Source: Escherichia coli
Lineage (GTDB): Bacteria; Pseudomonadota; Gammaproteobacteria; Enterobacterales; Enterobacteriaceae
Assembly (NCBI RefSeq): GCF_036507355.1
Contig: NZ_AP027877.1
DNA length: 64,000 nucleotides
Strand: one strand, 5' to 3'
Each line of letters begins with the position of its first letter. Position 1 is the stretch's first letter. Below the pieces are notes generated by a model. That model saw only the letters and a list, made by a program, of their open reading frames with translations. It had not been told where the DNA came from and made no database searches. A program made the translations under genes and the position numbers. Below are positions 27,957 to 64,000 of the stretch, one piece after another.

Positions 27957-29348
<1,392 letters not shown>

Positions 29349-29352
29349 CCCT

Positions 29353-31500: not shown

Positions 31501-31505
31501 TGAAC

Positions 31506-31535
31506 ACGCTGCCCGCACAGTCGGGCAGCGTTTGA
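31506..31535. terminator. bidirectional hairpin between mdtI and ydgD
   Basis: acgctgcccg-cacagt-cgggcagcgt followed by a T-run. Confidence 0.65.
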
Positions 31536-31538
31536 ACA

Positions 31539-32360: not shown

Positions 32361-32635
32361 ATCACACTCTGGTGGGTAATTATGATTATTAAAAGCAAAC
32401 CCTCATAAATACTATAGACGGGACGGGATGAAAGTGGGAGTAAAATCAGATAACTACAGTCAGGAAAGATAAAAACGGGCGGCAATCAGTGCGCATAAAA
32501 TAAGGATGATCAGAATGAACTCAAAGCGATAACGGCCCACCATACTACCCTCCGCTAAAGGCGGTGCTAAACGTTACCCGCTTAGCACCGTAATTTTCAG
32601 GCGCGAGGGGGCGCGCCAGCATTACTGTTGAAAAC

Positions 32636-32944
32636 TTACGCTGCGGGTTGTGCAGCAGGTTTTGCCGGTTGCTGATGGCTGTGTTTCTTGGCGTGTTTCT
32701 TCGCTGCCTGCGCTTTTTGTTCAGGGGCTTTCTGTTCAGCTTTCGCATTTTTATGATGCTTTTTAGCCGCCTGCGCTTTCTGGGCAGGTGCTGCTTTATG
32801 CTGTTTTTTATGATGTGTAGTTTTCGCCGGCGCTGCTTTGGTGGTCGTCGCAGTCGGAGCAGGTGTGGTCGCAGTCTCTGCAGCAAAGGCGGCAGAAGAC
32901 AGACCCATAGCAGCGGCAACAACCAGAGCTAATACTTTTTTCAT
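32636..32944 (-). CDS. asr: acid shock protein Asr
   Basis: 102 aa from [11 protein letters not shown]; signal peptide then Lys/His/Ala/Gln-rich repeats. Confidence 0.9.
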
Positions 32945-33214
32945 TGTCATACCCTCAATTTGTTTTTTCATTTAACCCCACTGCGGGGCCGTTGAAATAA
33001 CTATATCCCTGGGAATGGCAGACTTCCGTGAGTGGTTGGTTTCAGCGTGTAACGATATGTACAAACGCTGAATAAATTACAGCGTTGATAATAACGTATT
33101 GTGACTTAAGGGAAATTTAGCTACCAATAATAGTAGTCTTGATCGGGTTAACTATTTTACTACTTACAAAGCGGTAGAATAACTGCGCATCAGTAATAAA
33201 TGACACACAGCAAA

Positions 33215-33319
33215 ATGAATCCGTTTATTTGGGTACTTATAATCCTGATGACGCTAGACGCGCTGCGGGAATTGGCTGGCGCTTCGTCTATTTTAGGATG
33301 GCTATTAACGTTGGTTTGA
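33215..33319 (+). CDS. small hydrophobic ORF (34 aa, MNPFIWVLIILMTLDALRELAGASSILGWLLTLV); possibly YdgU-like
   Basis: Short ORF with a clear transmembrane stretch in the asr-ynfM intergenic region; identity is tentative. Confidence 0.35.
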   Translation: MNPFIWVLIILMTLDALRELAGASSILGWLLTLV

Positions 33320-33328
33320 GCAGGCAAT

Positions 33329-33362
33329 AAGTCCGGACGGGTATTTACCGCAATCCGGACTT
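33329..33362. terminator. hairpin at the ynfM 3' end
   Basis: aagtccgga ... tccggactt inverted repeat followed by ATTTTT. Confidence 0.55.
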
Positions 33363-33367
33363 ATTTT

Positions 33368-34621
33368 TCAGGCGTGCAGACGACGATGCAAACGCGTCCC
33401 GACCAGCAGAGCAATGACCAGCATCAGAGCAATAAATGCGCCGACGCCGTTCCAGCCATAGTTATGCCAGAAAACACCACCCAGCGTCCCGGCAATACTC
33501 GACCCCAGATAGTAACTGAACAGATACAGCGAGGAGGCCTGGCCTTTAGCGCGTTTTGCGCGGGGGCCGATCCAGCTGCTGGCAACTGAGTGGGCTGCGA
33601 AGAATCCTGCTGAGAAGAGTAACATTCCGGCAAAGATCAGCCACAGCGAGCTGAATAAGGTCATCAGTAAACCAAACAGCATAACCCCCGTCGAAAACAA
33701 CATCACTGGACCACGCCCATAGCGGGTGGTCATGGTTCCGGCTTTGGGTGAGCTCCATGTACCGGTCAAATAAGCCAGCGATAATAAGCCAACCACGGCC
33801 TGACTGACATGCCAGGGGGAGAGCATCAACCGATAGCCGATGTAATTAAACAGCGTGACGAACGACCCCATCAGCAAAAAGCCTTCTGCGAACAATAACG
33901 GTAATCCCCGGTCACGCCAGTGCAGACGAAAGTTGATAAACAACGACTTAGGTCGCAGCGAAGTCGGGCGAAAATGGCGTGATTCCGGGAGGATTTTCCA
34001 GAACATCAACGCCGAGGCTAGCGCGAAACAACCGATTGCCGCCAGCGCAATTCGCCAGTTGAAAAAGTCCGTGAAGACACCGCTAATTAAGCGTCCGCTC
34101 ATGCCGCCAATTGAGTTGCCGCTGATATACAACCCCATCGAAAAGGCCACGAAACTGGGGTGGATTTCCTCGCTAAGATAAGTCATGCCAACAGCTGCCA
34201 CGCCACTTAACGAAAGCCCAATCAAGGCGCGCATAATCAAAATGCCGTGCCAGCTGGTCATCATTGTCGAAAGTAACGTACAAATGGAGGCCAACAGTAG
34301 CGCCGTGACCATCACTGGTTTGCGACCAATGGCATCGGATAGCGGACCAGTAAACAGCAAACCGATAGCCAACATCGCCGTGGAAATGGACAGTGAAATA
34401 CTACTGTTCGCGGGCGTTAAGCCAAACTCCTGCGAAAGCACCGGAAGGATAGGCTGCACACAATAGAGAAGTGCAAATGTTGCCAGTCCGGCAGAGAACA
34501 GCGCCAGGGTGACGCGCATAAATTGCGGCGTACCGCGTTTAATAAATTGATTTGGCTGAGAAATGCTTTGCTTGTCAGTGTCGCTTGCCGGAGCGCCATC
34601 AACAGTTGTAGTACGGCTCAC
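33368..34621 (-). CDS. ynfM: MFS transporter YnfM
   Basis: 417-aa, 12-TM MFS-type ORF. Confidence 0.88.
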   Translation of the reverse strand: MSRTTTVDGAPASDTDKQSISQPNQFIKRGTPQFMRVTLALFSAGLATFALLYCVQPILPVLSQEFGLTPANSSISLSISTAMLAIGLLFTGPLSDAIGRKPVMVTALLLASICTLLSTMMTSWHGILIMRALIGLSLSGVAAVGMTYLSEEIHPSFVAFSMGLYISGNSIGGMSGRLISGVFTDFFNWRIALAAIGCFALASALMFWKILPESRHFRPTSLRPKSLFINFRLHWRDRGLPLLFAEGFLLMGSFVTLFNYIGYRLMLSPWHVSQAVVGLLSLAYLTGTWSSPKAGTMTTRYGRGPVMLFSTGVMLFGLLMTLFSSLWLIFAGMLLFSAGFFAAHSVASSWIGPRAKRAKGQASSLYLFSYYLGSSIAGTLGGVFWHNYGWNGVGAFIALMLVIALLVGTRLHRRLHA

Positions 34622-34727
34622 TTGAAATCCTTGCTAAATATGCCTGTGGATCAGGCTTATACATAGGTTAGGAAAATCGAATTGTTCTGTCTAATATATT
34701 AATAATCTCAAATAAGATGTTTTAAAT

Positions 34728-35621
34728 ATGAATATTGAACTTCGTCATCTGCGCTACTTTGTTGCGGTTGCGGAAGAACTGCATTTCGGGCGCGCCGCTG
34801 CCCGCCTGAATATTTCGCAACCGCCGCTAAGTCAGCAGATTCAGGCGCTGGAGCAACAAATTGGTGCCCGACTGCTGGCACGAACCAATCGCAGTGTATT
34901 GCTGACGGCAGCAGGAAAACAGTTTCTTGCAGATAGTCGGCAAATCCTGTCTATGGTGGATGACGCTGCCGCTCGCGCTGAAAGACTGCATCAGGGTGAA
35001 GCGGGGGAGTTGCGCATTGGTTTTACTTCGTCGGCTCCTTTTATTCGGGCGGTGTCCGATACGTTATCGCTGTTTCGCCGAGATTATCCCGATGTCCATT
35101 TACAAACCCGCGAAATGAACACTCGCGAGCAAATCGCTCCGCTCATTGAAGGAACGCTGGATATGGGATTGCTGCGTAACACAGCGTTACCGGAGACGCT
35201 TGAACACGTAGTCATCGTCCATGAACCGCTTATGGCGATGATCCCGCACGATCATCCCCTGGCAAATAACCCGAATGTAACGCTGGCTGAACTGGCGAAA
35301 GAACCCTTTGTCTTTTTTGATCCGCACGTCGGGACAGGGCTGTATGACGATATTCTCGGGCTGATGCGACGTTACCATTTGACGCCCGTCATCACTCAGG
35401 AGGTGGGCGAGGCAATGACCATCATCGGTCTGGTTTCCGCCGGTCTGGGTGTTTCAATTTTGCCTGCGTCATTTAAACGTGTTCAGCTCAACGAAATGCG
35501 CTGGGTGCCGATTGCTGAAGAGGATGCGGTTTCTGAAATGTGGTTGGTCTGGCCGAAACATCATGAACAAAGTCCGGCTGCGCGTAACTTTCGTATTCAT
35601 CTGCTGAATGCTCTCAGGTGA
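34728..35621 (+). CDS. ynfL: LysR-family transcriptional regulator YnfL
   Basis: 297-aa ORF with N-terminal LysR HTH (LRYFVAVAEELHFGRAA); divergent from ynfM. Confidence 0.88.
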   Translation: MNIELRHLRYFVAVAEELHFGRAAARLNISQPPLSQQIQALEQQIGARLLARTNRSVLLTAAGKQFLADSRQILSMVDDAAARAERLHQGEAGELRIGFTSSAPFIRAVSDTLSLFRRDYPDVHLQTREMNTREQIAPLIEGTLDMGLLRNTALPETLEHVVIVHEPLMAMIPHDHPLANNPNVTLAELAKEPFVFFDPHVGTGLYDDILGLMRRYHLTPVITQEVGEAMTIIGLVSAGLGVSILPASFKRVQLNEMRWVPIAEEDAVSEMWLVWPKHHEQSPAARNFRIHLLNALR

Positions 35622-35755
35622 GGGAAATTTCAGCGAAAAAGCCCGAAAAATGTGCTGTTAATCACATGCCTAAGTAAAAATTTGACGACACGTATTGAAG
35701 TGCTTCACCATAGCCTACAGATTATTTCGGAGCGCGAAAATATAGGGAGTATGCG

Positions 35756-36976
35756 GTGGTTGCTGAAAACCAGCCTGGGCACATTGATCAAATAAAGCAG
35801 ACCAACGCGGGCGCGGTTTATCGCCTGATTGATCAGCTTGGTCCAGTCTCGCGTATCGATCTTTCCCGTCTGGCGCAGCTGGCTCCTGCCAGTATCACTA
35901 AAATTGTCCGTGAGATGCTCGAAGCACACCTGGTGCAAGAGCTGGAAATCAAAGAAGCGGGGAACCGTGGCCGTCCGGCGGTGGGGCTGGTGGTTGAAAC
36001 TGAAGCCTGGCACTATCTTTCTCTGCGCATTAGTCGCGGGGAGATTTTCCTTGCTCTGCGCGATCTGAGCAGCAAACTGGTGGTGGAAGAGTCGCAGGAA
36101 CTGGCGTTAAAAGATGACTCGCCATTGCTGGATCGTATCATTTCCCATATCGATCAGTTTTTTATTCGCCACCAGAAAAAACTTGAGCGTCTAACTTCGA
36201 TTGCCATAACCCTGCCGGGAATTATTGATACGGAAAATGGCATTGTACATCGCATGCCGTTCTACGAGGATGTAAAAGAGATGCCGCTCGGCGAGGCTCT
36301 GGAGCAGCATACCGGCGTTCCGGTTTATATTCAGCATGATATCAGCGCATGGACGATGGCAGAGGCCTTGTTTGGTGCCTCACGCGGGGCGCGCGATGTG
36401 ATTCAGGTGGTTATCGATCACAACGTGGGGGCGGGCGTCATTACCGATGGTCATCTGCTACACGCAGGCAGCAGTAGCCTCGTGGAAATAGGTCACACAC
36501 AGGTAGACCCATATGGTAAACGCTGTTATTGCGGGAACCACGGCTGCCTCGAAACCATCGCCAGTGTGGACAGTATTCTTGAGCTGGCACAGCTGCGTCT
36601 CAATCAATCCATGAGCTCGATGTTACATGGGCAACCGTTAACCGTGGACTCATTGTGTCAGGCGGCATTGCGCGGCGATCTGCTGGCAAAAGACATCATT
36701 ACCGGGGTGGGCGCGCATGTAGGGCGCATTCTTGCCATCATGGTGAATTTATTTAACCCACAAAAAATACTGATTGGCTCACCGTTAAGTAAAGCGGCAG
36801 ATATCCTCTTCCCGGTCATCTCAGATAGCATCCGTCAGCAGGCCCTTCCTGCGTATAGTCAGCACATTAGCGTTGAGAGTACTCAGTTTTCTAACCAGGG
36901 CACGATGGCAGGGGCTGCGCTGGTAAAAGACGCGATGTATAACGGTTCTTTGTTGATTCGTCTGTTGCAGGGTTAA
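35756..36976 (+). CDS. mlc: ROK-family global regulator Mlc (DgsA)
   Basis: 406-aa ORF with ROK zinc motif CYCGNHGCLE; recognised as Mlc. Confidence 0.92.
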   Translation: MVAENQPGHIDQIKQTNAGAVYRLIDQLGPVSRIDLSRLAQLAPASITKIVREMLEAHLVQELEIKEAGNRGRPAVGLVVETEAWHYLSLRISRGEIFLALRDLSSKLVVEESQELALKDDSPLLDRIISHIDQFFIRHQKKLERLTSIAITLPGIIDTENGIVHRMPFYEDVKEMPLGEALEQHTGVPVYIQHDISAWTMAEALFGASRGARDVIQVVIDHNVGAGVITDGHLLHAGSSSLVEIGHTQVDPYGKRCYCGNHGCLETIASVDSILELAQLRLNQSMSSMLHGQPLTVDSLCQAALRGDLLAKDIITGVGAHVGRILAIMVNLFNPQKILIGSPLSKAADILFPVISDSIRQQALPAYSQHISVESTQFSNQGTMAGAALVKDAMYNGSLLIRLLQG

Positions 36977-37100
36977 CATTTTTTAACTGTTCTACCAAAA
37001 TTTGCGCTATCTCAATTTGGGCCAGGAAAGCATAACTTAGACTTTCAAGGTTAATTATTTTCCTGGTTTATATTTGTGAAGCATAACGGTGGAGTTAGTG

Positions 37101-51470: not shown

Positions 51471-52289
51471 TTAAGCAGCCATCTGATGATATTTTTCCCT
51501 GAAGGCTGCCGGGGAGATATTCCCCAGACGAGAGTGACGACGCTGACGATTGTAGAAAATCTCAATGTATTCCCGTATTACTGAGATGGCTTCATCCCGG
51601 TTATTAAAACGATAGTGGCTCAGGCTCTCATTTTTCAGCGTTCCCCAGAAGCTTTCCATCGGAGCGTTGTCGTAACAGTTACCTTTACGCGACATTGATG
51701 TTTTCAGACCAAACTGCTCCTGTATGACCCGGTAATCGTATGCGCAGTACTGTGAACCTCGATCAGAGTGGTGGATTAGCCCGGCAGGTGGGCGCTGTCT
51801 CCTGAGCGCCATAAACAGGGCTTTACCTGTCAGCTCTTTTGTCATGCGCTCTCCCATGGCGTAGCCGACAATTTCGCACGTATAAACATCTTTGATGCCA
51901 GCGAGGTACAACCATCCCTCCTGTGTGGCAACATACGTCAGGTCCGCCACCCAGACCTGATTTGGTGCTGTAGGAGCGAACGTCTGGTTCAGCAGATTTG
52001 GCGCAACTGGCAGATTGTGGTTCGAGTTCGTAGTCGCTCTGAACTTGCGTTTCTGCTTACAGCGTAGCCTTAGCTCCTTACGAAGACGTGCCAGTCGGTC
52101 ACGACCAACGATGATGCCATTCTCTGCCAGCTCCGTCTGGAGCCGCCGGGTTCCATATGTTTCGCGAGTGCGGATATGTGCCACCTTAATCTCCAGTTTT
52201 AGCCGCTCATCACTTTGTTTTCTGTCTGAGGGTTCATGCTGTACCCAGTTGTAATAACCGCTCCTGGATACACCAAATACCTGACACAT
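51471..52289 (-). CDS. IS600 transposase OrfB (DDE integrase domain)
   Basis: 272-aa ORF recognised as IS600 OrfB; DDE-type catalytic core. Confidence 0.88.
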   Translation of the reverse strand: MCQVFGVSRSGYYNWVQHEPSDRKQSDERLKLEIKVAHIRTRETYGTRRLQTELAENGIIVGRDRLARLRKELRLRCKQKRKFRATTNSNHNLPVAPNLLNQTFAPTAPNQVWVADLTYVATQEGWLYLAGIKDVYTCEIVGYAMGERMTKELTGKALFMALRRQRPPAGLIHHSDRGSQYCAYDYRVIQEQFGLKTSMSRKGNCYDNAPMESFWGTLKNESLSHYRFNNRDEAISVIREYIEIFYNRQRRHSRLGNISPAAFREKYHQMAA

Positions 52290-52324
52290 CGCTTCAATGG
52301 GAAATTGTTGTCGCCATTGTTCGA

Positions 52325-52627
52325 TTAACGCGTATTTTTCAGCGACTCCTGTGCAAAATACGCTGTTGCTTTTTTTAATATATCTCGCTCAAGGCGAGCT
52401 TCATTTAACGCCTTACGCAGTTGCAGAATTTCAGATTCCAGTTCAGCCACCGTGCGGGAACCAGGAGTACCGAGCCCTTTTCTGGCGGCGGTAACCCATT
52501 GTCCTAAAGTGCCTTCAGGAAGAGATAATCGGGAAGCGCCTTCACTGATCGAAAGTTGATTTTCAAGAACCGTTCTGACAGCTTCGGCTTTGAACTCTTT
52601 AGAGTAACGTTGGGTTTTTCTGCTCAT
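52325..52627 (-). CDS. IS600 transposase OrfA (HTH)
   Basis: 100-aa ORF MSRKTQRYSKEFKAEAVRTV... recognised as IS600 OrfA; ends at the slippery heptamer. Confidence 0.88.
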   Translation of the reverse strand: MSRKTQRYSKEFKAEAVRTVLENQLSISEGASRLSLPEGTLGQWVTAARKGLGTPGSRTVAELESEILQLRKALNEARLERDILKKATAYFAQESLKNTR

Positions 52628-54386
52628 TATTAGCTCCTTCTGATGCCATTCTATTTCAGGAAGGAGTGTCCGTTAAACTCAGGCTACCTCATACCAATAA
52701 CGGCGAGTAAGTAGTACGCATCTTACCTCTTTTTTAGAGATAACCATTATGTCAATAGAAAAACACGAAAGAAGCACTAAGGATTTGGTGAAAGCAGCAG
52801 TATCGGGATGGCTGGGCACTGCGCTTGAATTTATGGATTTCAAGAGTCATGCGTGTTAACTATTTGATAAATATTAAATTAATTTTTCATTGCTTCGTTA
52901 TGGGGCATGGTTGGGGCAAACTCGCTTAACTGTGTATTTAACAAAGCTACCTGTGCATTATTGTTTTCAGACATCCATTTTCCGTATAGACCCTCCGCAT
53001 CTTGAGAGTGTTGGTGATAACGCCTGGATGGGAAAGAAATATGGACGGCTGAATAAAGATGCCTGGCGTGATGATTCGCGACAGAGATTTAAAGAAGCCT
53101 TTCGGGTGTTGAGGCCGCACGGCGTTCTGATTTTTTAATGGAATGAAACGCAAATACCGGTAAGCCAGATTCTGGCACTGACAGACAGAAAACCTGTTAT
53201 CTGTCAACGAACAGGGAAAAAACGATAAAACCCACTGGATTATTTTTATGAAAGAGGCATCCAGTGAGTAGATTCGTAAGGCTACAGATACGTATATCTG
53301 AATAATTAAATTCAGTTCTGTAAATAAAATTTAATCCTTAACCGGATGGATTTCTGCACCCTCAGAACATCAGGAGGCCGCCCGAAAGGGCGGTAGTGAA
53401 ATGCGAAAGTTCAAAATTATTATTGAAACGGGAATAGCTGGTGGAGATTTTGAGGATGTATTCGAAGTGGACGATGACGCAACACCTGAGGAAATTCATG
53501 ACGGAGCATAAGAAATTTTCTTTAACTACTGCAATTACTCATACCACGAAATAAAAGACGATGAGGAAGAACAAAGTGGCTGATTTTTGTTCAGCTAAAT
53601 ATAACATCAGTTTTGAAGAGCGGGATGAACTATTAATGGACTATGGTGAGTTACGCGGTGGAAGTGCTGCTGATGTCGAATCCTAGCGTGATGACTATGA
53701 AGCGGGAAAAACTCCGGTCGAAGCATATTGTGATGAGTGGGGCGATGAATGAGCGAGATTAATTATCAGGAAGGGCATGAAACGGCGGGGCAAGCAAAAC
53801 CAGTGGCATGGCGATATCGCTACGTGAAAAAAGGCGTTACGGACTTTCAGGGGAAGTAGTGGTCTGGTGACTGGAAATATGTACCGAAAAAAGAGGATTG
53901 TAACGACAGGCCGAACTATCAAATTCAGGCCTTATTCACTGCCTCACCAGTCCCAGTTACATCAGAAGAACTGGTTAAAGCTGTGCACTTTTATGAACAA
54001 CTAAAACGCGAAAATCCACCAACATCCGGCAACTAGATTAATGGATTAACTATGTCGGTTAAACGACCAGCCAACTGAAAAAGCGGAAACCTGATTACAG
54101 GTTGCCAGATAAGGCAATGAGCTACCTGGCGCGGAACGGACTGATAAGTATGGGGAATGTTTTACGATGAACCTTTAGACTAAAGAGTTTGTAACGCTAT
54201 GTAAGTGATTTTTTCTGGTTTAGATATTTATATGTCCGGCCAAATTGAGGTGTGTTTAAATGTAATTGCACATTGATTGTAGGAGGAATAATGAAAAACG
54301 CATTGCAGTTTTTGTTTGTTGCGTTCTGGTTGTTCGCATCATGTATGCCCATCATCTTCACAGCAAGGTGAATCGCCACGGATAAT

Positions 54387-55199
54387 CTAGACACTTCCGA
54401 GCCGTTGATAATACTGGTTTTCATATTCTGTCGGTGACATCTGATCGCTGGAACCATGCCGACGCTTACTGTTATAAAACATTTCGATGTAATCAAAAAT
54501 ATCGCTGCGGGCTTCTTCCCGCGTTCCGTAGATCTTTTTCTTTATCCGTTCGCGTTTCAACAACTGGAAAAAGCTTTCTGCAACCGCATTATCATGGCAG
54601 TTACCGCGACGGCTCATGCTGCCATCCAGGCCGTGTGATTTCAGGAACGACTGCCACTCATGGCTTGTGTACTGACTGCCCTGATCCGAATGAACCAGCA
54701 CCTGTTTTTGGGGATTACGGCGCCATACAGCCATCAGCAGTGCGTTCAGGACAATGTCCTTTGTCATCCGGGATTGCATGGACCAGCCGATAATTTTGCG
54801 TGAGAACAGATCAACAACCACGGCAAGATACAGCCAGCCTTCGTGGGTCCTGATGTAGGTTATGTCCGTTACCCAACGCTTATCCGGAGCATCCGGATTG
54901 AACTGTCGCTGGAGCCTGTTGGGCGACACGATACTGGCCTCGCCTTTACGTGCCCGCGGGCTCCGGTATCCGACCTGAGCCTTTATCCCGACACGTTTCA
55001 TCAGTCGCCAGACTCTGTTCACTCCGCACTGTTGCCCGCTGTCCCGCAGATCCAGATGGATTTTGCGATAACCATAGACGCATCCCGATTCCAGCCAGAA
55101 CTGTTTAATCTGCCCTGTCAGCCTCAGGTCTGCCTGATGGCGTTGTGAATGCGGCTGCTGAAGCCAGGCGTAAAAACCACTGGGATGAACATCCAGCAC
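54387..55199 (-). CDS. IS3-family transposase OrfB
   Basis: 270-aa ORF with DDE integrase core (…HSDQGSQYTS…, …GNCHDNAVAESFF…). Confidence 0.85.
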   Translation of the reverse strand: MLDVHPSGFYAWLQQPHSQRHQADLRLTGQIKQFWLESGCVYGYRKIHLDLRDSGQQCGVNRVWRLMKRVGIKAQVGYRSPRARKGEASIVSPNRLQRQFNPDAPDKRWVTDITYIRTHEGWLYLAVVVDLFSRKIIGWSMQSRMTKDIVLNALLMAVWRRNPQKQVLVHSDQGSQYTSHEWQSFLKSHGLDGSMSRRGNCHDNAVAESFFQLLKRERIKKKIYGTREEARSDIFDYIEMFYNSKRRHGSSDQMSPTEYENQYYQRLGSV

Positions 55200-55255
55200 C
55201 CGACAGAGCAGGCGAACAGGCCAGCAACAGGTGTTGTCACGGATAAAGGCGTACC

Positions 55256-55540
55256 TCAGTCGGACAGCTTTGCGAAGTACGCCGCGGCTTTTTTTAATAT
55301 GTCCCGTTCGTCGGTAACCCGCTTCAGCTCTTTCTGGAGACGGCGGATCTCGGCCTGAGCATCTGACTGTTCTTTATTAGCGGAAGAATCCGGACCGTAC
55401 TTCTTTATCCAGGCGTAAAGGCTGTGGGTGGTGATATCGAGACGTGTTGCAACGCTGGCAACAGAATAACCGCGATCAACAACCTGTTTGACTGCTTCAA
55501 TTTTAAACTCTTCGGGATAACGCTTACCGCTCATGGGCAC
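55256..55540 (-). CDS. IS3-family transposase OrfA
   Basis: 94-aa HTH ORF ending at the slippery heptamer. Confidence 0.85.
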   Translation of the reverse strand: MPMSGKRYPEEFKIEAVKQVVDRGYSVASVATRLDITTHSLYAWIKKYGPDSSANKEQSDAQAEIRRLQKELKRVTDERDILKKAAAYFAKLSD

Positions 55541-55760
55541 CTCTCTTTAAGCCATCTTAAATGACTCTGAGGTGTCTGTTAAACCCGTGGCGATTCATAA
55601 TTGATCATGGGTTGTCAGTTAAACTCGTGGCGATTTAAATAGACTAATTGGGAGTGCGTCCATTACTTATATCTTGTAATGTTAACTATCAGAAATTCTT
55701 GTAATGTTAACTATCAGAAATGATACAAAGATAATATGTCTTTAAAGAAAAGGCTGATGG

Positions 55761-55785
55761 CGAAAAGTGGCCCGATGAGGGCCAC
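55761..55785 (-). terminator. intrinsic terminator of flxA
   Basis: On the minus strand: hairpin GTGGCCC-TCATC-GGGCCAC followed by TTTTC. Confidence 0.7.
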
Positions 55786-55799
55786 AATACGGCTGTCAC

Positions 55800-56132
55800 T
55801 TAGACGTAAATATCAATGGTGCCAGCGGTATTTGTATCGTCTTTTTTCTCTTCTTTTTTATCAGGCTGAACTGTCGCGTCTTCATTCTTTTTCTCTGCCT
55901 GCTGCCTTAACAACTGCTCCAGTTGAGCCCAGAGGCTTTCAATTTGCTTCTGTACCAATGCAGCCATTTCTTTTTTCTGCTGTGTCGTCATCCCCTCTTC
56001 CGATGAGATTTTCCCAAGCTTTTCAGTCAGCACCTGAATTTGTCTTGTGATTTTGGCTATTTCTGATGTTCCTTCCGGGGCGGAGTTGTTTGAAATAACG
56101 GTTGAGGTATTTCCCTGAATTGTGACAGACAT
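55800..56132 (-). CDS. flxA: FliA-regulated prophage protein FlxA
   Basis: 110-aa ORF recognised as FlxA; preceded by a sigma28-type promoter and a GGAG ribosome-binding site. Confidence 0.8.
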   Translation of the reverse strand: MSVTIQGNTSTVISNNSAPEGTSEIAKITRQIQVLTEKLGKISSEEGMTTQQKKEMAALVQKQIESLWAQLEQLLRQQAEKKNEDATVQPDKKEEKKDDTNTAGTIDIYV

Positions 56133-56155
56133 AGATTTCTCCTTTTAAAAAAGCA

Positions 56156-56182
56156 CTATCGGCATGCACAAAAAAATCTTTA
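56156..56182 (-). promoter_or_regulatory. sigma28 (FliA) promoter of flxA
   Basis: Minus strand reads TAAAGATT-N11-GCCGATAG, matching consensus TAAAGTTT-N11-GCCGATAA, about 25 nt upstream of the flxA start. Confidence 0.75.
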
Positions 56183-56334
56183 ATCGTATTTCTTGTGTCA
56201 TTAATTGTTTGATGTTCAGATTGTTTTCCTCGCGGGCTGGCGCGCCTCAGAAAGTAAAGCTTGTTGACAGGGGTAAACGTTCGGCAATAATTTTCTGCCG
56301 CATGCGGGTGTTGCATAAAACGTGTTACGTTCCT

Positions 56335-56640
56335 TTATCGACAGGTCAGGTCACCGCTCACCCGCCGACGAGAAAGCAACACTGACATGCTAAAGCAAAA
56401 AATAGATGAATAAGTTGAGTTGTGCATATGTAGCCTGACCGTCACAAAGTATATGGTGTCTGTACCAGTAAGATGATGGCCGGACTCTTTAAAAACGAGC
56501 TGACCTGCACAATACAGGATGGACTTAGCAATGGCTGCTCCTGGCACAAAGCGGACAGTGATCACCGTTCTTACGACTACTTTCTGACTTCCTTCGTGAC
56601 TTGCCCTAAGCATGTTGTAGTGCGATACTTGTAATGACAT
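56335..56640 (-). CDS. ydfV: prophage protein of unknown function (YdfV-like)
   Basis: 101-aa ORF between flxA and relB; identity rests on size and position only. Confidence 0.4.
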   Translation of the reverse strand: MSLQVSHYNMLRASHEGSQKVVVRTVITVRFVPGAAIAKSILYCAGQLVFKESGHHLTGTDTIYFVTVRLHMHNSTYSSIFCFSMSVLLSRRRVSGDLTCR

Positions 56641-56653
56641 TTGTAATTACAAG
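56628..56653. promoter_or_regulatory. relBE operator (inverted TTGTAAT repeats)
   Basis: cttgtaatgacatttgtaattacaag about 12 bp upstream of the relB ATG. Confidence 0.7.
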
Positions 56654-56664
56654 AGGTGTAAGAC

Positions 56665-56904
56665 ATGGGTAGCATTAACCTGCGTATTGACGATGAACTT
56701 AAAGCGCGTTCTTACGCCGCGCTTGAAAAAATGGGTGTAACTCCTTCTGAAGCGCTTCGTCTCATGCTCGAGTATATCGCTGACAATGAACGCTTGCCGT
56801 TCAAACAGACACTCCTGAGTGATGAAGATGCTGAACTTGTGGAGATAGTGAAAGAACGGCTTCGTAATCCTAAGCCAGTACGTGTGACGCTGGATGAACT
56901 CTGA
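56665..56904 (+). CDS. relB: RelB antitoxin
   Basis: 79-aa ORF recognised as RelB; stop overlaps the relE start. Confidence 0.92.
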   Translation: MGSINLRIDDELKARSYAALEKMGVTPSEALRLMLEYIADNERLPFKQTLLSDEDAELVEIVKERLRNPKPVRVTLDEL

Positions 56905-57191
56905 TGGCGTATTTTCTGGATTTTGACGAGCGGGCACTAAAGGAATGGCGAAAGCTGGGCTCGACGGTACGTGAACAGTTGAAAAAGAAGCTGGTTGAAG
57001 TACTTGAGTCACCCCGGATTGAAGCAAACAAGCTCCGTGGTATGCCTGATTGTTACAAGATTAAGCTCCGGTCTTCAGGCTATCGCCTTGTATACCAGGT
57101 TATAGACGAGAAAGTTGTCGTTTTCGTGATTTCTGTTGGGAAAAGAGAACGCTCGGAAGTATATAGCGAGGCGGTCAAACGCATTCTCTGA
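56904..57191 (+). CDS. relE: RelE mRNA interferase toxin
   Basis: 95-aa ORF recognised as RelE. Confidence 0.92.
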   Translation: MAYFLDFDERALKEWRKLGSTVREQLKKKLVEVLESPRIEANKLRGMPDCYKIKLRSSGYRLVYQVIDEKVVVFVISVGKRERSEVYSEAVKRIL

Positions 57192-57250
57192 ACCAAAGCT
57201 TCGCACCGAAGGTGACACTTCTGCTTTGCGTTGACAGGAGAAGCAGGCTA

Positions 57251-57406
57251 TGAAGCAGCAAAAGGCGATGTTAATCGCCCTGATCGTCATCTGTTTAACC
57301 GTCATAGTGACGGCACTGGTAACGAGGAAAGACCTCTGCGAGGTACGAATCCGAACCGGCCAGACGGAGGTCGCTGTCTTCACAGCTTACGAACCTGAGG
57401 AGTAAG
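57251..57406 (+). CDS. hokD: Hok-family type I toxin (HokD/RelF)
   Basis: 51-aa ORF MKQQKAMLIALIVICLTVIVTALVTRKDLCEVRIRTGQTEVAVFTAYEPEE translated by hand from the sequence (below the ORF-track size cutoff). Confidence 0.85.
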
Positions 57407-57471
57407 AGACCCGGCGGGGGAGAAATCCCTCGCCACCTCTGATGTGGCAGGCATCCTCAACGCACCCGCAC

Positions 57472-57500
57472 TTAACCCGCTTCGGCGGGTTTTTGTTTTT
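57472..57500 (+). terminator. intrinsic terminator after hokD
   Basis: aacccgc-ttcg-gcgggtt followed by TTTTGTTTTT. Confidence 0.7.
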
Positions 57501-57621
57501 ATTTTCAACGCGTTTGAAGTTCTGGACGGTGCCGGAATAGAATCAAAAATACTTAAGTAGCGCGCAGGGATAAGAGGGATGGTCCCTTAAAGGGGAGAGC
57601 TAATTATCCGGAAGGATTCTG

Positions 57622-57873
57622 ATGATGAACATCGAAGAACTGCGTAAAATTTTTTGTGAAGATGGCCTCTATGCTGTGTGCGTTGAAAATGGAAATCTTG
57701 TTAGTCATTACCGCATTATGTGTTTGCGAAAGAATGGGGCTGCGTTAATTAATTTTGTGGATGCTCGGGTCACGGACGGATTTATCTTGCGCGAAGGTGA
57801 GTTTGTCACTTCATTACAGGCATTGAAAGAGATCGGAATAAAAGCTGGCTTTTCTGCTTTTTCAGGAGAATAA
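57622..57873 (+). CDS. rem: prophage protein Rem
   Basis: 83-aa ORF at the position of rem in Qin-type prophages. Confidence 0.6.
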   Translation: MMNIEELRKIFCEDGLYAVCVENGNLVSHYRIMCLRKNGAALINFVDARVTDGFILREGEFVTSLQALKEIGIKAGFSAFSGE

Positions 57874-58180
57874 ACTCATCTACAATCTTGCGCGGGGCTG
57901 AACTCCCGCTGAGTAACACCGTGCCACCGGAGAAAACCGATGGCACGCAACGCAAAATATTACAATTCTGATAATTCGCCCGTTCTTGCCTGCACGCACG
58001 GGCGGTATTCTCACGCATTCAAGTCTGAATGGTTCCAGCACCCTCCATGCACTGCAGAACAGGCCGAATGGCTGATTCATTCTTACCGCAGGCGCGGGTT
58101 CGAGGTTAAGAAAGCTCTCAGTCTCGACTATCGGCACTGGATAATCTCTGTCAGGCTGCCTTATTCCGAACGCCCACCAC

Positions 58181-59269
58181 GTGCGTCCCGCACTTTCCAG
58201 CAACGGATCTGGAGGTAACGTGCGGGTATTACTTAGACCTGTTCTGGTGCCTGAGCTTGGGCTGGTGGTCCTTAAGCCGGGCCGTGAATCCATACAGATA
58301 TTTCATAATCCTCGAGTGCTGGTGGAACCGGAACCAAAAAGCATGCGTAATCTGCCATCCGGAGTCGTTCCTGCCGTTCGCCAGCCGCTGGCGGAAGACA
58401 AAACATTGCTGCCGTTTTTTAGTAACGAACGGGTGATTCGTGCTGCTGGCGGCGTTGGCGCATTGTCCGACTGGCTATTACGTCATGTTACATCCTGCCA
58501 GTGGCCTAATGGCGATTACCATCACACTGAAACAGTCATTCACCGTTATGGTACCGGCGCAATGGTGTTGTGCTGGCACTGCGACAACCAACTGCGTGAC
58601 CAGACATCGGAATCACTGGAGCTGCTTGCTCAACAAAATCTGACAGCATGGGTGATTGACGTCATCCGTCACGCAATAAGCGGTACGCAGGAGCGGGAAT
58701 TATCTTTGGCTGAATTATCCTGGTGGGCGGTCTGCAATCAGGTGGTGGATGCACTACCTGAGGCTGTATCGCGTCGTTCGCTGGGATTACCAGCGGAAAA
58801 AATCTGCTCGGTGTACCGCGAAAGCGACATCGTACCGGGAGAGCAGACCGCCACCAGCATATTGAAACAACGCACAAAAAATCTTGCACCGTTGCCTTAC
58901 GCCCACCAGCAACAAAAATCACCACAGGAAAAGACGGTGGTAAGCATCACCGTTGATCCAGAGTCTCCGGAATCTTTCATGAAGCTGCCTAAACGTCGCC
59001 GCTGGGTTAAGGAGAAATACACACGTTGGGTTAAGACACAGCCGTGTGCTTGCTGCGGTATGCCAGCCGACGATCCGCATCATCTGATTGGTCACGGGCA
59101 GGGCGGAATGGGAACAAAAGCACATGATCTCTTTGTGTTGCCTTTGTGCAGAAAGCATCACAACGAGCTGCATACGGATACAGTGGCATTTGAAGATAAG
59201 TATGGCTCCCAACTGGAGCTGATATTTCGTTTTATCGATCGCGCGCTGGCAATTGGCGTACTGGCGTAA
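58181..59269 (+). CDS. ydfU: DUF968-family prophage protein YdfU
   Basis: 362-aa ORF upstream of and overlapping the Q antiterminator gene; true start may be internal. Confidence 0.65.
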   Translation: MRPALSSNGSGGNVRVLLRPVLVPELGLVVLKPGRESIQIFHNPRVLVEPEPKSMRNLPSGVVPAVRQPLAEDKTLLPFFSNERVIRAAGGVGALSDWLLRHVTSCQWPNGDYHHTETVIHRYGTGAMVLCWHCDNQLRDQTSESLELLAQQNLTAWVIDVIRHAISGTQERELSLAELSWWAVCNQVVDALPEAVSRRSLGLPAEKICSVYRESDIVPGEQTATSILKQRTKNLAPLPYAHQQQKSPQEKTVVSITVDPESPESFMKLPKRRRWVKEKYTRWVKTQPCACCGMPADDPHHLIGHGQGGMGTKAHDLFVLPLCRKHHNELHTDTVAFEDKYGSQLELIFRFIDRALAIGVLA

Positions 59270-59282
59270 GTGGAGAACGAGC

Positions 59283-60035
59283 ATGAACCTTGAAGCCTTA
59301 CCAAAATATTACTCCCCAAAATCTCCAAAATTGAGCGATGACGCTCCAGCGACAGGCACCGGTTGTTTAACAATTACGGATGTAATGGCAGCGCAGGGGA
59401 TGGTGCAGTCGAAAGCACCACTTGGGTTGGCCTTATTTCTGGCAAAAGTTGGTGTTCAGGACCCTCAGTTTGCGATTGAAGGCCTGCTAAATTACGCGAT
59501 GGCACTGGATAACCCGACATTGAACAAATTGAGTGAAGAAATCCGGTTACAGATTATTCCTTACCTCGTGAGTTTTGCCTTTGCTGATTACTCCAGGTCT
59601 GCGGCAAGTAAGGCTCGCTGTGAGCATTGTTCAGGTACGGGATTTTATAATGTATTGCGCGAAGTGGTGAAACACTACAGACGCGGGGAATCTGTAATCA
59701 AGGAAGAATGGGTGAAGGAACTATGTCAGCATTGCCATGGTAAGGGCGAAGCCAGCACAGCGTGCAGAGGGTGTAAGGGTAAAGGGATTGTTCTGGATGA
59801 AAAAAGAACCCGGTTTCATGGCGTACCGGTATATAAGATTTGTGGGCGTTGTAATGGAAACCGGTTTAGTCGTTTACCGACCACGCTGGCACGACATCAT
59901 GTCCAGAAGCTGGTACCAGACCTGACCGATTATCAGTGGTATAAGGGGTATGCGGACGTCATTGGTAAACTGGTAACAAAGTGCTGGCAGGAAGAAGCAT
60001 ACGCGGAAGCGCAATTGAGGAAGGTGACGAGATAA
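59283..60035 (+). CDS. quuQ: lambdoid late-gene antiterminator Q
   Basis: 250 aa from MNLEALPKYY; zinc-finger cysteines (CxxC...CxxC) typical of Q proteins. Confidence 0.8.
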   Translation: MNLEALPKYYSPKSPKLSDDAPATGTGCLTITDVMAAQGMVQSKAPLGLALFLAKVGVQDPQFAIEGLLNYAMALDNPTLNKLSEEIRLQIIPYLVSFAFADYSRSAASKARCEHCSGTGFYNVLREVVKHYRRGESVIKEEWVKELCQHCHGKGEASTACRGCKGKGIVLDEKRTRFHGVPVYKICGRCNGNRFSRLPTTLARHHVQKLVPDLTDYQWYKGYADVIGKLVTKCWQEEAYAEAQLRKVTR

Positions 60036-60141
60036 ATGATTTTTGCTGAAGATGGCGACATGATGTTTGCATTTTTCAAAAAATATGGATAAAATTTTTT
60101 CAACGATGGGCTTTGTATACCCGACGTTAAGAAAAAGTAGA

Positions 60142-60164
60142 AAACCCGCTGATGAGCGGGTTTT
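60142..60164. terminator. hairpin downstream of the Q gene (tR'-like or bidirectional)
   Basis: aaacccgct-gatg-agcgggttt flanked by an A-run and a T-run. Confidence 0.55.
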
Positions 60165-60456
60165 GTGCTTTAAATGGGGCAATGGTAATGTTGAATCTCA
60201 TCCCGGGACTCATGTCTGTTAACTTATTATTTAGCTGGTGACTTGGTTATTTGCCTGATGTTTAAAATGTTTTCTTCCAGTACAATGTCCCTAAACACAA
60301 TGAGTCTGCTTATTATATTATTAGCAGAGCTATTACGGCCAAAGTACAGCATAAGCTTTTAAAGCCAATCAACCAGTCATCAAGACAGACGGGGTTATTC
60401 ATAAAAACTCTCCATGTGTGATCCGATGGGGCCTGAAATTAAAGCTTTAATATAGC

Positions 60457-60669
60457 TCATGAAAGGTAAACATTGGCAGCTGAAGGGCCACGCAGACCAT
60501 TTATCCGGCAAAATTCCACGCGTAATCCGGTGGTAATTTCTTCTGCATCGCGGAGATTGAGCGGTGAAACATGAAGCTGGACATCGATACGACCATCGGA
60601 TGGGGTGATAAGACCCTTGCCGCTTTTGCCGTCAAAGGTTTTGACAATTCCTGTCATTTTACGGGACAA
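60457..60669 (-). CDS. cspF: cold-shock-domain protein CspF
   Basis: 70-aa CspA-family ORF. Confidence 0.88.
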
Positions 60670-60969
60670 AAAAATTCCTTAATACTGATAACTTGGCGCA
60701 CTATACACACGTTCCTGAAGAAAGCTATAGTTTTTTGATGGGGTTGAAGATGGCTGGATGTCTAAAATAAACATTGCTTCATATGTTCAACTATGCGTTA
60801 ATGATTGCGTCGGTTTGAAGAACAGACGATATACGAAGTAGTTTACTAAAGCAGTTCTCATTTCAGGTGTTATTCACTTATTCCTTCTTTGAGTCTCTCC
60901 AATTAAGTACGAAGTCGTTTCTGTTATGCAAACCATTTATGCCGAAAGGCTCAAGTTAAGGAATGTAGA

Positions 60970-61185
60970 ATGTCAAATAAAATGACTGGTTTAGTAAAAT
61001 GGTTTAACGCTGATAAAGGTTTCGGCTTTATTTCTCCTGTTGATGGTAGTAAAGATGTGTTTGTGCATTTTTCTGCGATTCAGAATGATAATTATCGAAC
61101 CTTATTTGAAGGTCAAAAGGTTACCTTCTCTATAGAGAGTGGTGCTAAAGGTCCTGCAGCAGCAAATGTCATCATTACTGATTAA
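60970..61185 (+). CDS. cspB: cold shock protein CspB
   Basis: 71-aa ORF with RNP1-like KGFGFI motif; long upstream leader. Confidence 0.92.
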
Positions 61186-61466
61186 AATTCATCGCTCGTC
61201 TGTATACGATAACGAAGAAGGCTGATGCCTGAGTAGAGATACGGACAGAGTAGTGAATATTGGATCTCTTTAATAAAAAGTAAGGAGGTCCAATACATGA
61301 AACAATGGCTAGCATATTTGGCAAAATCTTAATCAGGAAAAGTATGCTAACCATTGTGGTGAAGTGCAGGTTTGCTGCATGAATAGTTTTACAGCAGAAG
61401 CTAACTGCTGGCATGGCAAAACAAAGTGCGTAAGTGGATGACTCCCACAAAAAGCACCACAATCTC

Positions 61467-61490
61467 AAACCCGCTCAGGCGGGTTTTTTA
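61467..61490 (+). terminator. intrinsic terminator downstream of cspB
   Basis: aaacccgc-tcag-gcgggttt followed by a T-run. Confidence 0.6.
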
Positions 61491-61548
61491 TTATCTGCTT
61501 TAAATATATTATTAAAATATAAAAAATACTTGTTACTAATAAAATCAA

Positions 61549-61770
61549 TCAGGCTACAGCTTTAAGATTTGTCTGGAATACTTTGTTGCAATGAGGGCAG
61601 ATCAAAAGGGCACCTTTTTGTACTCTTGAAAAACTGTGTTCTGACTCTTGGGTGCAGTTTGGGCAGGAACATTTAACGAGATAATTACGGCGTGATTTTG
61701 AGTTTTTACGTTCTGACATAGGCTTTTCCTGTATAAATGGCCGTATACAGTACACTAAATATGAAAACAT
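61549..61770 (-). CDS. small zinc-ribbon-like prophage ORF
   Basis: 73-aa ORF with two CxxC pairs (CSCPNC ... CPHC); function unknown. Confidence 0.4.
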   Translation of the reverse strand: MFSYLVYCIRPFIQEKPMSERKNSKSRRNYLVKCSCPNCTQESEHSFSRVQKGALLICPHCNKVFQTNLKAVA

Positions 61771-61938
61771 TTCTCGTATTATTATTTTATATATGACTTT
61801 CTTTCAAAATAATTACCCACATTTTTAATGTGTATGTTTTTTTAGCGCCGTTGAGAACAACGTGTGCTGTCAAAACTACCCCGTAGACTCCGATCTTTTC
61901 AAACATATTGCACCATCCGTGTACATCGGGGTGAGGAT

Positions 61939-62154
61939 ATGAAATCAATGGATAAGTTAACAACAGGTGTTGCATATGGCACATCGGCGGGTAATGCTGG
62001 TTTCTGGGCATTGCAGTTACTCGATAAAGTAACTCCGTCACAGTGGGCTGCAATCGGTGTGCTGGGTAGCCTGGTTTTTGGCCTGCTGACGTATCTGACA
62101 AATCTTTATTTCAAGATTAAAGAAGACAGGCGTAAGGCTGCGAGAGGAGAGTAA
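61939..62154 (+). CDS. essQ: phage 21 S-type pinholin with dual-start motif
   Basis: 71 aa from [18 protein letters not shown]...; close to phage 21 S21 in sequence; two closely spaced Met codons (MKSMDK) typical of holin/antiholin. Confidence 0.85.
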
Positions 62155-62158
62155 TCCA

Positions 62159-62466
62159 ATGACTCAAGACTATGAACTGGTTGTGAAAGGAGTCCGTAAT
62201 TTTGAGAATAAAGTTACGGTAACTGTAGCCTTACAGGACAAAGAACGCTTTGACGGTGAAATTTTTGACCTGGATGTCGCCATGGACCGTGTTGAAGGAG
62301 CTGCGCTGGAGTTTTATGAGGCAGCAGCCAGAAGGAGCGTCCGGCAAGTCTTCCTGGAAGTAGCAGAAAAATTGTCAGAAAAAGTTGAGTCTTATCTGCA
62401 GCATCAGTACTCCTTTAAGATTGAAAATCCTGCCAATAAGCACGAGCGTCCTCATCATAAATATCT

Positions 62467-62470
<4 letters not shown>
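62159..62470 (+). CDS. ydfR: prophage protein YdfR
   Basis: 103-aa ORF between the holin and endolysin genes. Confidence 0.6.
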
Positions 62471-63494
<1,024 letters not shown>

Positions 63495-63856
63495 GGTAAT
63501 ATTAAATCGGAACATTTACATCGCGGAATGTAAAATTTAAATAAAAAGGACTCTTCCATGAGCCAAAATTCCTGAAATCTTAAGGGTAAGATAAAAGGTC
63601 TTAATCAGAATGACACGTTTTATTAATAAATAAAGCTATTCTTTCATTGCTGTGTTTTTCTTTACAAAAGTAATCCTTGCTATGGGTGGTTAATCATGCG
63701 TTAATGGTGTTCTGGTTTGTTACAAATTTATCTGAAGCAGTCATTGTTATAATTTTATTATTTGTACCTCTTGAGATTTCCTTGTTGGTTTTTCTCTCTG
63801 ATATTTTTTTTCGGACCATTCTGCCCAAGGGCTAATTTCTTCAAAAGGTAATAATT

Positions 63857-64000
63857 ATGTCTAACAAAATGACTGGTTTAGTGAAATGGTTTAACCCTGA
63901 AAAAGGTTTTGGTTTCATCACGCCGAAAGATGGCAGCAAAGATGTGTTTGTCCATTTCTCAGCAATTCAGAGCAACGATTTCAAAACATTAACTGAGAAT
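63857..64000 (+). CDS. cspI: cold shock protein CspI (5' part; truncated by the window end)
   Basis: [48 protein letters not shown]...; the window ends inside the gene. Confidence 0.85.

What the first reader, a model, noticed from the sequence alone, without database searches (positions are those of the whole stretch)
55673..55721. Perfect tandem duplication of a 25-bp unit downstream of flxA
The unit TCTTGTAATGTTAACTATCAGAAAT occurs twice head-to-tail. It contains CTTGTAATG, the same half-site as the relBE operator at 56628. It lies between the IS remnant and the flxA terminator and could be a duplicated operator or recombination site, or a replication-slippage product.
Basis: seen in the sequence. 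Interest (0 to 1): 0.35.

Follow-up and report, generated by a model that had tools for sequence, protein, structure and literature searches.

The report
Rare 25-bp duplication beside flxA
A 25-base stretch of non-coding DNA in an old, defective prophage is present twice in a row in this strain and once in about 97% of related E. coli; it looks like an ordinary, probably harmless copying error rather than a control or recombination site.

Summary
It lies in a non-coding spacer of a Qin-type defective prophage, between an old IS-end remnant and the flxA terminator hairpin.

It is a rare allele. Of 1190 complete E. coli genomes that carry the unit, 29 (2.4%) have two copies. K-12, the only full-length phage record (PhiR42_1), all 52 IMG/VR contigs and both reference-genome contigs have one. 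None has three. Flanks are otherwise near-identical, and no SNP tracks the allele. The unit is not a dispersed repeat.

The link to the relBE operator does not hold:
- The shared 9-mer is at chance level.
- relO needs four hexads in two abutting 12-bp half-sites. The unit has one hexad, and the two copies put these 25 bp apart.
- The repeat lies between convergent genes, not over a promoter.

No Rfam family, ORF, stable fold or recombination-site-like inverted repeat is present. A transposon-footprint origin does not fit either.

Best reading: a neutral tandem duplication from a replication or illegitimate-recombination error in one Qin sub-lineage, passively inherited. Low interest.

The parts
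55672..55696 (.). Copy 1 of the 25-bp unit TCTTGTAATGTTAACTATCAGAAAT. This is the extra copy relative to K-12, although which copy is 'new' cannot be assigned.
55697..55721 (.). Copy 2 of the 25-bp unit, 100% identical to copy 1. Neither end of the array shares a base with the adjoining flank (A before versus T at the unit's end; G after versus T at the unit's start), so there is 0 bp of microhomology.
55595..55637 (-). Context: an old IS3-family left-end remnant, 78% similar to the end of the intact IS. It is present in K-12 and ATCC 8739 as well. The repeat starts 35 bp to its right.
54369..55597 (-). Context: a complete 1229-bp IS3-family element (orfA 55256-55540, orfB 54387-55199; inverted repeats TGAATCGCCACGG). 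It has no target-site duplication. It replaces about 2 kb (the ISNCY transposase fragment plus ydfW) that is present in ATCC 8739.
55760..55785 (-). Context: the flxA terminator-like hairpin GUGGCCC-UCAUC-GGGCCAC followed by UUUUCGCC. The repeat lies beyond it, outside the flxA transcription unit.
   Evidence: z = -2.8; not called by the consensus scan, because the T-run has only 4 T
55800..56132 (-). Context: flxA (110 aa).
55707..55735 (+). Weak sigma-70-like match TTAACT-17-GATAAT (9 of 12). Its first hexamer lies in copy 2, and it points antisense into flxA. It is probably not significant.
   Evidence: 3 sites found against 2.4 expected
56629..56652 (+). Comparison object: relO, the true RelB operator, made of two abutting 12-bp half-sites TTGTAATGACAT and TTGTAATTACAA.
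   Evidence: PMC2812701

Best explanation
The feature is a passively inherited tandem duplication (an insertion allele) in a non-coding spacer of a Qin-type defective prophage.

Shown by the tool results:
- The two copies are perfect and adjacent.
- The same site is single-copy in K-12, in the one full-length Qin-like phage record, and in about 97.6% of E. coli genomes that have the locus.
- The flanks are otherwise essentially identical between the two alleles.
- The unit occurs nowhere else in those genomes.
- It overlaps no gene and no known RNA family, and has no stable fold and no RelB-operator architecture.

Inferred:
- One copy is the ancestral state.
- A single replication template-switch or illegitimate-recombination event duplicated 25 bp in one Qin sub-lineage.
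- The allele then spread by descent, and possibly by recombination or transfer of the very conserved prophage, while that sub-lineage picked up different deletions and IS insertions.
- It has no function. It sits beyond the flxA terminator, between convergently oriented genes.
For: - The array is perfect, with 2.0 copies.
- K-12 has one copy and ATCC 8739 two, in an otherwise identical 500-bp alignment.
- The 50-bp two-copy query hits 29 of 5426 complete genomes, one place each.
- The unit is present in 1190 genomes, with a median of one place per genome, and 1176 genomes carry the wider 221-bp locus at 80% coverage or more. Two copies is therefore 2.4% of carriers.
- Phage PhiR42_1 (48.7 kb) has one copy.
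- All 52 IMG/VR contigs and both species-representative genome contigs have one copy.
- No SNP in 1.7 kb to the left or 4.5 kb to the right tracks the allele.
- Three independent ATCC 8739 assemblies, one of them a laboratory-evolved derivative, all keep two copies, so the allele is stably inherited.
- There is no Rfam match, no fold beyond shuffles (z about -0.5), and only spurious ORFs.
- The flxA terminator hairpin lies between the gene and the repeat.
Against: - There is no microhomology at the duplication ends. Textbook strand slippage usually shows some, so the exact mutational mechanism is not established.
- The two-copy allele sits on at least seven structurally different Qin variants.
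- It also sits in a chromosomal backbone that is at most 99.5% identical to any complete E. coli genome. A single origin therefore requires an old event plus horizontal movement of the prophage; otherwise the duplication recurred. Local haplotypes are too uniform to decide.
- The unit shares 9 nt with relO about 930 bp away (about 5-10% by chance), which cannot by itself exclude weak RelB contact.
Confidence: 0.83

Rival explanations
1. Polarity reversed: two copies is the older state of this Qin lineage, and the common one-copy form arose, perhaps repeatedly, by deletion between the 25-bp direct repeats. It would still be non-functional.
For: Deletion between perfect tandem repeats is mechanistically easier than duplication without microhomology (established knowledge). 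The two-copy allele is found in several structurally distinct and some relatively complete Qin variants, such as ATCC 8739.
Against: One copy is found in 97.6% of carriers, in the full-length phage PhiR42_1, and in 54 of 54 further contigs. The two copies are 100% identical, as expected for a young duplication. The two-copy allele persists unchanged across independent ATCC 8739 assemblies, so it is not hyper-unstable.
Confidence: 0.07
2. Transposon footprint: an element that makes long target-site duplications inserted here and was later lost exactly at its ends, leaving both copies of a 25-bp target duplication side by side. Candidates are relatives of the IS1202/ISNCY-type element whose transposase fragment lies about 0.6-1.6 kb upstream in other strains.
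For: The junctions lack microhomology, as expected for staggered cuts that are then filled in. A fragment annotated as 'IS1202-like ISEsa1' or 'ISNCY' transposase lies just upstream in ATCC 8739 and other loci. The IS1202 family is known for unusually long target duplications (bioRxiv 10.1101/2022.12.17.520857).
Against: [quoted passage not shown] Circular ISKpn21 copies suggest copy-out-paste-in for at least that subgroup, which would leave no footprint, though the family's mechanism is little known. E. coli lacks the end-joining that would reseal a donor site (established knowledge). None of 1193 records has the unit split by an insertion. No third copy of the unit flanks the ISNCY fragment.
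Confidence: 0.04
3. Duplicated protein-binding site: each unit carries a RelB hexad (TTGTAA), so two copies create a weak auxiliary or decoy RelB2-RelE site, or a site for some other regulator, near the relBE locus.
For: CTTGTAATG occurs three times in the window, twice in the repeat and once in relO, against 0.55 expected. The repeat is only about 930 bp from relO.
Against: - Two of the three hits are the duplication itself. Two independent hits against 0.55 expected gives P of about 0.1.
- The best local alignment of the spacer with the relBE promoter region is only ATA(T)CTTGTAATG. It is matched or beaten by 5.5% of other window segments and 8% of shuffles.
- relO needs four hexads in two abutting 12-bp half-sites, and inserting 2 or 10 nt between the half-sites causes 45-50-fold derepression (PMC2812701).
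- The unit reads TTGTAATGTTAA, so its second hexad is broken at the critical bases, and the two copies are 25 bp apart.
- The 12-bp pattern occurs only at 56629 and 56641, while single hexads occur 107 times in the window.
- There is no promoter to regulate. The site lies between convergent genes, beyond a terminator.
- 97.6% of strains do without the second copy.
Confidence: 0.03
4. Promoter modifier: the extra AT-rich copy sits at about -36 to -60 of a weak sigma-70-like promoter (TTAACT-17-GATAAT, 55707-55735). That promoter reads antisense into flxA, so copy number would tune antisense transcription.
For: A promoter-like match with its -35 element inside copy 2. The unit is 72% A+T.
Against: The match is 9 of 12, and the region yields no more promoter-like sites than shuffles do (3 against 2.4 +/- 1.6). 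No RNA family or conserved structure lies downstream. The only ORF downstream is an unlikely 104-aa frame antisense to flxA. There are no expression data.
Confidence: 0.03

Closest known systems
Small tandem-duplication / indel polymorphism in intergenic bacterial DNA (a VNTR-like two-allele locus)
   Same: The copies are perfect and head to tail. Copy number differs (1 versus 2) between otherwise identical homologous loci. The region is non-coding and the allele is inherited within lineages.
   Different: Only two allele states were seen and none had three or more copies, so it does not behave as a fast-mutating VNTR. The junction lacks the microhomology typical of slippage-generated duplications.
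relO, the RelB2-RelE operator of the E. coli relBE promoter (PMC2812701)
   Same: They share the 9-mer CTTGTAATG, which includes one hexad of the [A/T]TGT[A/C]A type, and both lie in the same prophage about 930 bp apart.
   Different: relO has four hexads in two abutting 12-bp half-sites over the -10 to +20 region of a strong promoter. The unit has one hexad and no inverted partner, the copies are 25 bp apart, and there is no promoter context. The similarity is at chance level.
Long target-site duplications of IS1202-family insertion sequences
   Same: Both are direct repeats a few tens of bp long without microhomology. A fragment of such a transposase lies nearby in related strains.
   Different: No element lies between the copies in any genome. 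25 bp is outside the reported classes of 5-6, 15-17 and 27-28 bp. For the one member studied (ISKpn21), circular copies point to copy-out-paste-in, which leaves no empty-site footprint.

Membership tests
relO-type RelB/RelB2-RelE operator | Four hexads [A/T]TGT[A/C]A arranged as two directly abutting 12-bp (pseudo)palindromic half-sites | tested here: not met
   A regular-expression search for hexad plus inverted hexad finds only 56629 and 56641, which is relO itself. The unit reads TTGTAATGTTAA, with one hexad and a broken partner, and the copies are 25 bp apart. The definition comes from PMC2812701.
relO-type RelB/RelB2-RelE operator | Overlaps the promoter (-10 to about +20) of the operon it represses | tested here: not met
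   The repeat lies between convergent transcription units, about 40 bp beyond the flxA terminator hairpin. The only nearby promoter-like site is a 9-of-12 match, in a region with no more such sites than shuffles give (3 against 2.4).
relO-type RelB/RelB2-RelE operator | Sequence similarity to relO beyond chance | tested here: not met
   The local alignment score of 20 is reached by 5.5% of other window segments and 8% of shuffles. The 9-mer count is 3 against 0.55 expected, but two of the three hits are the duplication itself.
relO-type RelB/RelB2-RelE operator | Bound by RelB2 or RelB2-RelE | not testable with these tools
   Needs a gel-shift, footprinting or ChIP experiment.
Simple tandem duplication / copy-number polymorphism | Adjacent head-to-tail copies of one unit | tested here: met
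   Period 25, 2.0 copies, 100% identity.
Simple tandem duplication / copy-number polymorphism | Copy number varies among homologous loci whose flanks are otherwise the same | tested here: met
   29 genomes have two copies and about 1160 have one. The alignment with K-12 and ATCC 8739 differs only by the 25-nt gap. 54 of 54 additional contigs have one copy.
Simple tandem duplication / copy-number polymorphism | Microhomology at the duplication end points, the signature of slipped-strand mispairing | tested here: not met
   The base before the array (A) differs from the last base of the unit (T), and the base after it (G) differs from the first base of the unit (T), giving 0 bp of microhomology. 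This leaves the mutational mechanism open, but not the classification as a duplication.
Transposon target-site-duplication footprint (IS1202 family) | Repeat length equals the element's target-site duplication length | tested here: not met
   The family's classes are 5-6, 15-17 and 27-28 (29) bp. The unit is 25 bp.
Transposon target-site-duplication footprint (IS1202 family) | Related genomes carry the element between the two copies (an occupied site) | tested here: not met
   In all 1193 records with the unit, one place covers at least 80% of the 60-nt query, so no record has the unit split by an insertion.
Site-specific recombination site (att or dif-like) | Inverted recombinase-binding arms around a short central spacer, with further copies (partner sites) elsewhere | tested here: not met
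   No inverted repeat lies within or around the unit other than the 6-bp GTTAAC. The unit occurs about once per genome, and only at this locus.

The most novel reading that the evidence does not exclude
The second copy is not neutral. By doubling an AT-rich, RelB-hexad-bearing segment just upstream of a weak promoter-like site that points antisense into flxA, it could give the roughly 2% of strains that carry it a different level of antisense transcription of the FliA-dependent gene flxA, or a weak RelB decoy site near relBE.
Probability: 0.03. Interest if true: 0.3.

Novelty: already known. Interest (0 to 1): 0.06.

Why it matters
It matters very little biologically. The finding is an ordinary small insertion allele in junk-like spacer DNA of a decaying prophage. 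Its practical uses are as a lineage marker for a sub-lineage of the Qin prophage (ATCC 8739, porcine O139:H1/ETEC strains, the strain of this window). It is also a caution that a 9-nt match to a known operator does not make an operator.

Tried and rejected
1. RelB operator. Rejected on architecture, position and statistics.

2. IS1202-type target-duplication footprint. Rejected because the length does not match, no site is occupied, and no third copy flanks the ISNCY fragment.

3. Known RNA. An Rfam E-value search of 54000-58000 finds nothing at the locus. DNA folds of either strand are no better than shuffles.

4. Dispersed repeat or recombination-site family. The unit is found about once per genome, only here, with no inverted arms.

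5. Linked SNPs to decide between a single and a recurrent origin. The flanks are too uniform: about 4 SNPs in 1.7 kb to the left and about 10 in 4.5 kb to the right, none co-segregating. The first left-flank alignment was unusable because of structural differences between loci.

6. Tracing one deletion junction (LD39-1 type) across both alleles. Only three genomes share it, and all have two copies, so it is uninformative.

7. Outgroup species for polarity. The species-representative scan found the locus in only two records: one labelled E. coli, and one on a contig of a MAG labelled Collinsella that is probably mis-binned. Both have one copy, so there is no true outgroup.

8. Literature search for the sequence: no hits.

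9. Identifying the source genome. No complete RefSeq E. coli genome has this IS configuration. The backbone is at most 99.5% identical to any of them.

Full report
**Observation.** The window reads ...CCATTACTTATA [TCTTGTAATGTTAACTATCAGAAAT][TCTTGTAATGTTAACTATCAGAAAT] GATACAAAGATAATATG....
- Tandem Repeats Finder gives period 25, 2.0 copies, 100% matches and no indels at 55672-55721.
- A pattern search allowing three mismatches finds only these two copies in 64 kb, against 0.00 expected.
- The base before the array (A) and the base after it (G) do not extend the repeat. It is therefore exactly two copies, with no microhomology at the ends.

**Context.** The region is a Qin-type defective prophage. 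Reading rightwards it contains:
- flxA, 55800-56132 (minus strand)
- ydfV, 56335-56640 (minus strand)
- relB, 56665-56904
- relE, 56904-57191
- then hokD, rem, ydfU and ydfT

On the flxA strand, a hairpin GUGGCCC-UCAUC-GGGCCAC followed by UUUUCGCC lies at 55760-55785 (z = -2.8 against shuffles). The repeat is about 40 bp beyond it, outside the flxA transcript.

To the left is a complete 1229-bp IS3-family element at 54369-55597. It has both inverted repeats (TGAATCGCCACGG) and intact orfA and orfB, and matches many copies elsewhere at 99.8-99.9%. It has no target-site duplication. It replaces about 2 kb, holding an ISNCY/IS1202-like transposase fragment and ydfW, that ATCC 8739 keeps. It abuts an older IS-end remnant at 55595-55637 that is 78% similar and is also present in K-12 and ATCC 8739. 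The repeat begins 35 bp to the right of that remnant.

**Comparison with other genomes.** Aligned with K-12 and ATCC 8739, the window is identical from 55593 onward, except that K-12 lacks exactly one 25-nt unit.

| Data set | Result |
|---|---|
| 5426 complete E. coli genomes, 50-bp two-copy query (cannot seed on a single copy) | 29 genomes hit, one place each |
| Same collection, sensitive search with the array plus 5 nt either side | unit present in 1190 genomes; median one place per genome, maximum three |
| Same collection, wider 221-bp locus | 1176 genomes at 80% coverage or more |
| Phage collection | one record, full-length phage PhiR42_1 (48.7 kb) from ECOR13: one copy |
| IMG/VR viral contigs | 52 of 52 have one copy |
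| Species-representative genome contigs | 2 of 2 have one copy |

- The 29 two-copy genomes include three ATCC 8739 assemblies, about 20 porcine ETEC/O139:H1 strains and a handful of others.
- Two copies is therefore 2.4% of carriers. No genome shows three copies.
It shows the duplication is a rare variant, not a constant feature of Qin-like prophages.

**Origin.**
- In 1.7 kb to the left and 4.5 kb to the right there are only a few SNPs among 15 loci, and none separates two-copy from one-copy loci.
- The two-copy allele sits on the consensus haplotype and on several derivatives with one to three private SNPs.
- It occurs on at least seven structurally different Qin variants, which carry different internal deletions and IS insertions.
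- The window's chromosomal backbone (pntAB to mlc) is at most 99.5% identical to any complete E. coli genome, whereas its Qin segment at 58000-64000 is 100% identical to K-12.
- The allele is therefore old enough to have diversified, and the prophage is far more uniform than the chromosomes that carry it.
- The data cannot tell whether the duplication arose once and moved with the prophage, or arose a few times.
- The three independent ATCC 8739 assemblies, one a laboratory-evolved derivative, all keep two copies, so the allele is stable on laboratory time scales.

**Is it an operator?** CTTGTAATG does occur in relO at 56628, but the link fails on four counts.
- Statistics. Two of the three window hits are the duplication itself. 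The best local alignment of the one-copy spacer with the relBE promoter region is ATA(T)CTTGTAATG, and 5.5% of other window segments and 8% of shuffles match or beat it.
- Architecture. Published mutagenesis and footprinting define relO as four hexads [A/T]TGT[A/C]A in two abutting 12-bp half-sites, TTGTAATGACAT and TTGTAATTACAA. Mutations in either hexad derepress 12-36-fold. Inserting 2 or 10 nt between the half-sites derepresses 45-50-fold (PMC2812701).
- Content. The unit reads TTGTAATGTTAA. It has one hexad and a destroyed inverted partner, and the duplication places the two hexads 25 bp apart. In the window the full 12-bp pattern occurs only at relO, while single hexads occur 107 times.
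- Position. There is nothing to operate on. The site lies between convergent genes and beyond a terminator. The only nearby promoter-like match, TTAACT-17-GATAAT at 55707-55735, is 9 of 12, in a region with no more such matches than shuffles give.

**Is it a recombination site or a transposon scar?**
- No inverted repeat beyond the 6-bp GTTAAC lies in or around the unit, and there are no partner copies elsewhere in genomes.
- The lack of microhomology, and an 'IS1202-like ISEsa1' transposase fragment upstream in other strains, suggested a target-duplication footprint.
- However, that family makes duplications of 5-6, 15-17 or 27-28 bp. Circular ISKpn21 copies also point to copy-out-paste-in, at least for that subgroup.
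- No genome has an element between the copies, and no third copy flanks the fragment. I reject this reading.

**Other checks.** No Rfam family matches at the locus, even at E-value up to 1. Neither strand folds better than shuffles. The ORFs overlapping the array are short or antisense frames with no support. No paper in the library contains the sequence.

**Conclusion.**
- The duplication is real but ordinary. It is a rare two-copy allele of a 25-bp stretch of spacer DNA.
- It most likely came from a replication template-switch or illegitimate-recombination error, and is inherited passively in a sub-lineage of the Qin prophage (confidence about 0.83).
- The mutational mechanism, the polarity (one copy ancestral) and the neutrality are inferences.
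- The existence, the rarity, the identical flanks and the failure of the operator and footprint tests are shown.
- Remaining alternatives are reversed polarity (0.07), footprint (0.04), weak protein site (0.03) and antisense-promoter modifier (0.03).
- Interest is low.

Noticed in passing
window 54369-55637: A complete 1229-bp IS3-family element has no target-site duplication. It has replaced about 2 kb (the ISNCY transposase fragment plus ydfW, equal to L001 4004-6000). It ends exactly against an older remnant of a similar IS left end (78% similar, same orientation). This looks like IS targeting of a sequence resembling its own inverted repeat, or an IS-mediated adjacent deletion.
   Followed up: partly
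window 57199/57200 (between relE and hokD): The window lacks 13 bp (ATGACATCTCTGT) that are present in all 15 other loci compared. The deletion removes the ATG of a short upstream reading frame ahead of hokD, so hokD expression may be altered in this strain.
   Followed up: partly
window 25000-37000 versus 58000-64000: The chromosomal backbone (pntAB to mlc) is at most 99.5% identical to any of 5426 complete E. coli genomes, yet the Qin prophage segment is 100% identical to K-12. Qin is much more uniform than the chromosomes that carry it. The source is probably an IS-rich lineage (Shigella-like) that is absent from the collection.
   Followed up: partly
window 51471-52627: IS600-like orfA and orfB (IS3 family) lie just left of the junction with Qin sequence at 52984. 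This is another IS in the same 4-kb stretch.
   Followed up: no
window 57414-57495 (+): There is a weak, sub-threshold Rfam match to isrK (25.1 bits against a gathering score of 50, E = 0.016) just downstream of hokD.
   Followed up: no
L018 (JAIJJM010000167.1, 'Collinsella sp.' MAG), 3680-3920: A 5.5-kb contig binned as Collinsella carries a stretch of E. coli Qin prophage sequence (ydfW-flxA spacer, one copy of the unit); the 241 bp read is identical to the E. coli contig L017. It is almost certainly a mis-binned E. coli contig.
   Followed up: no
L001 4460-5752 and equivalent loci (absent from the window): In most non-K-12 strains a transposase fragment annotated ISNCY or 'IS1202-like ISEsa1' lies directly upstream of the 49-aa ydfW ORF. 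ydfW may be a leftover of that element rather than a gene in its own right.
   Followed up: no
window 55663-55681: In the ancestral one-copy sequence there is a 6-bp inverted repeat CATTAC-N9-GTAATG that straddles the left edge of the unit. Its fold is weak (-2.6 kcal/mol, z = -0.55), so it is probably not significant.
   Followed up: partly
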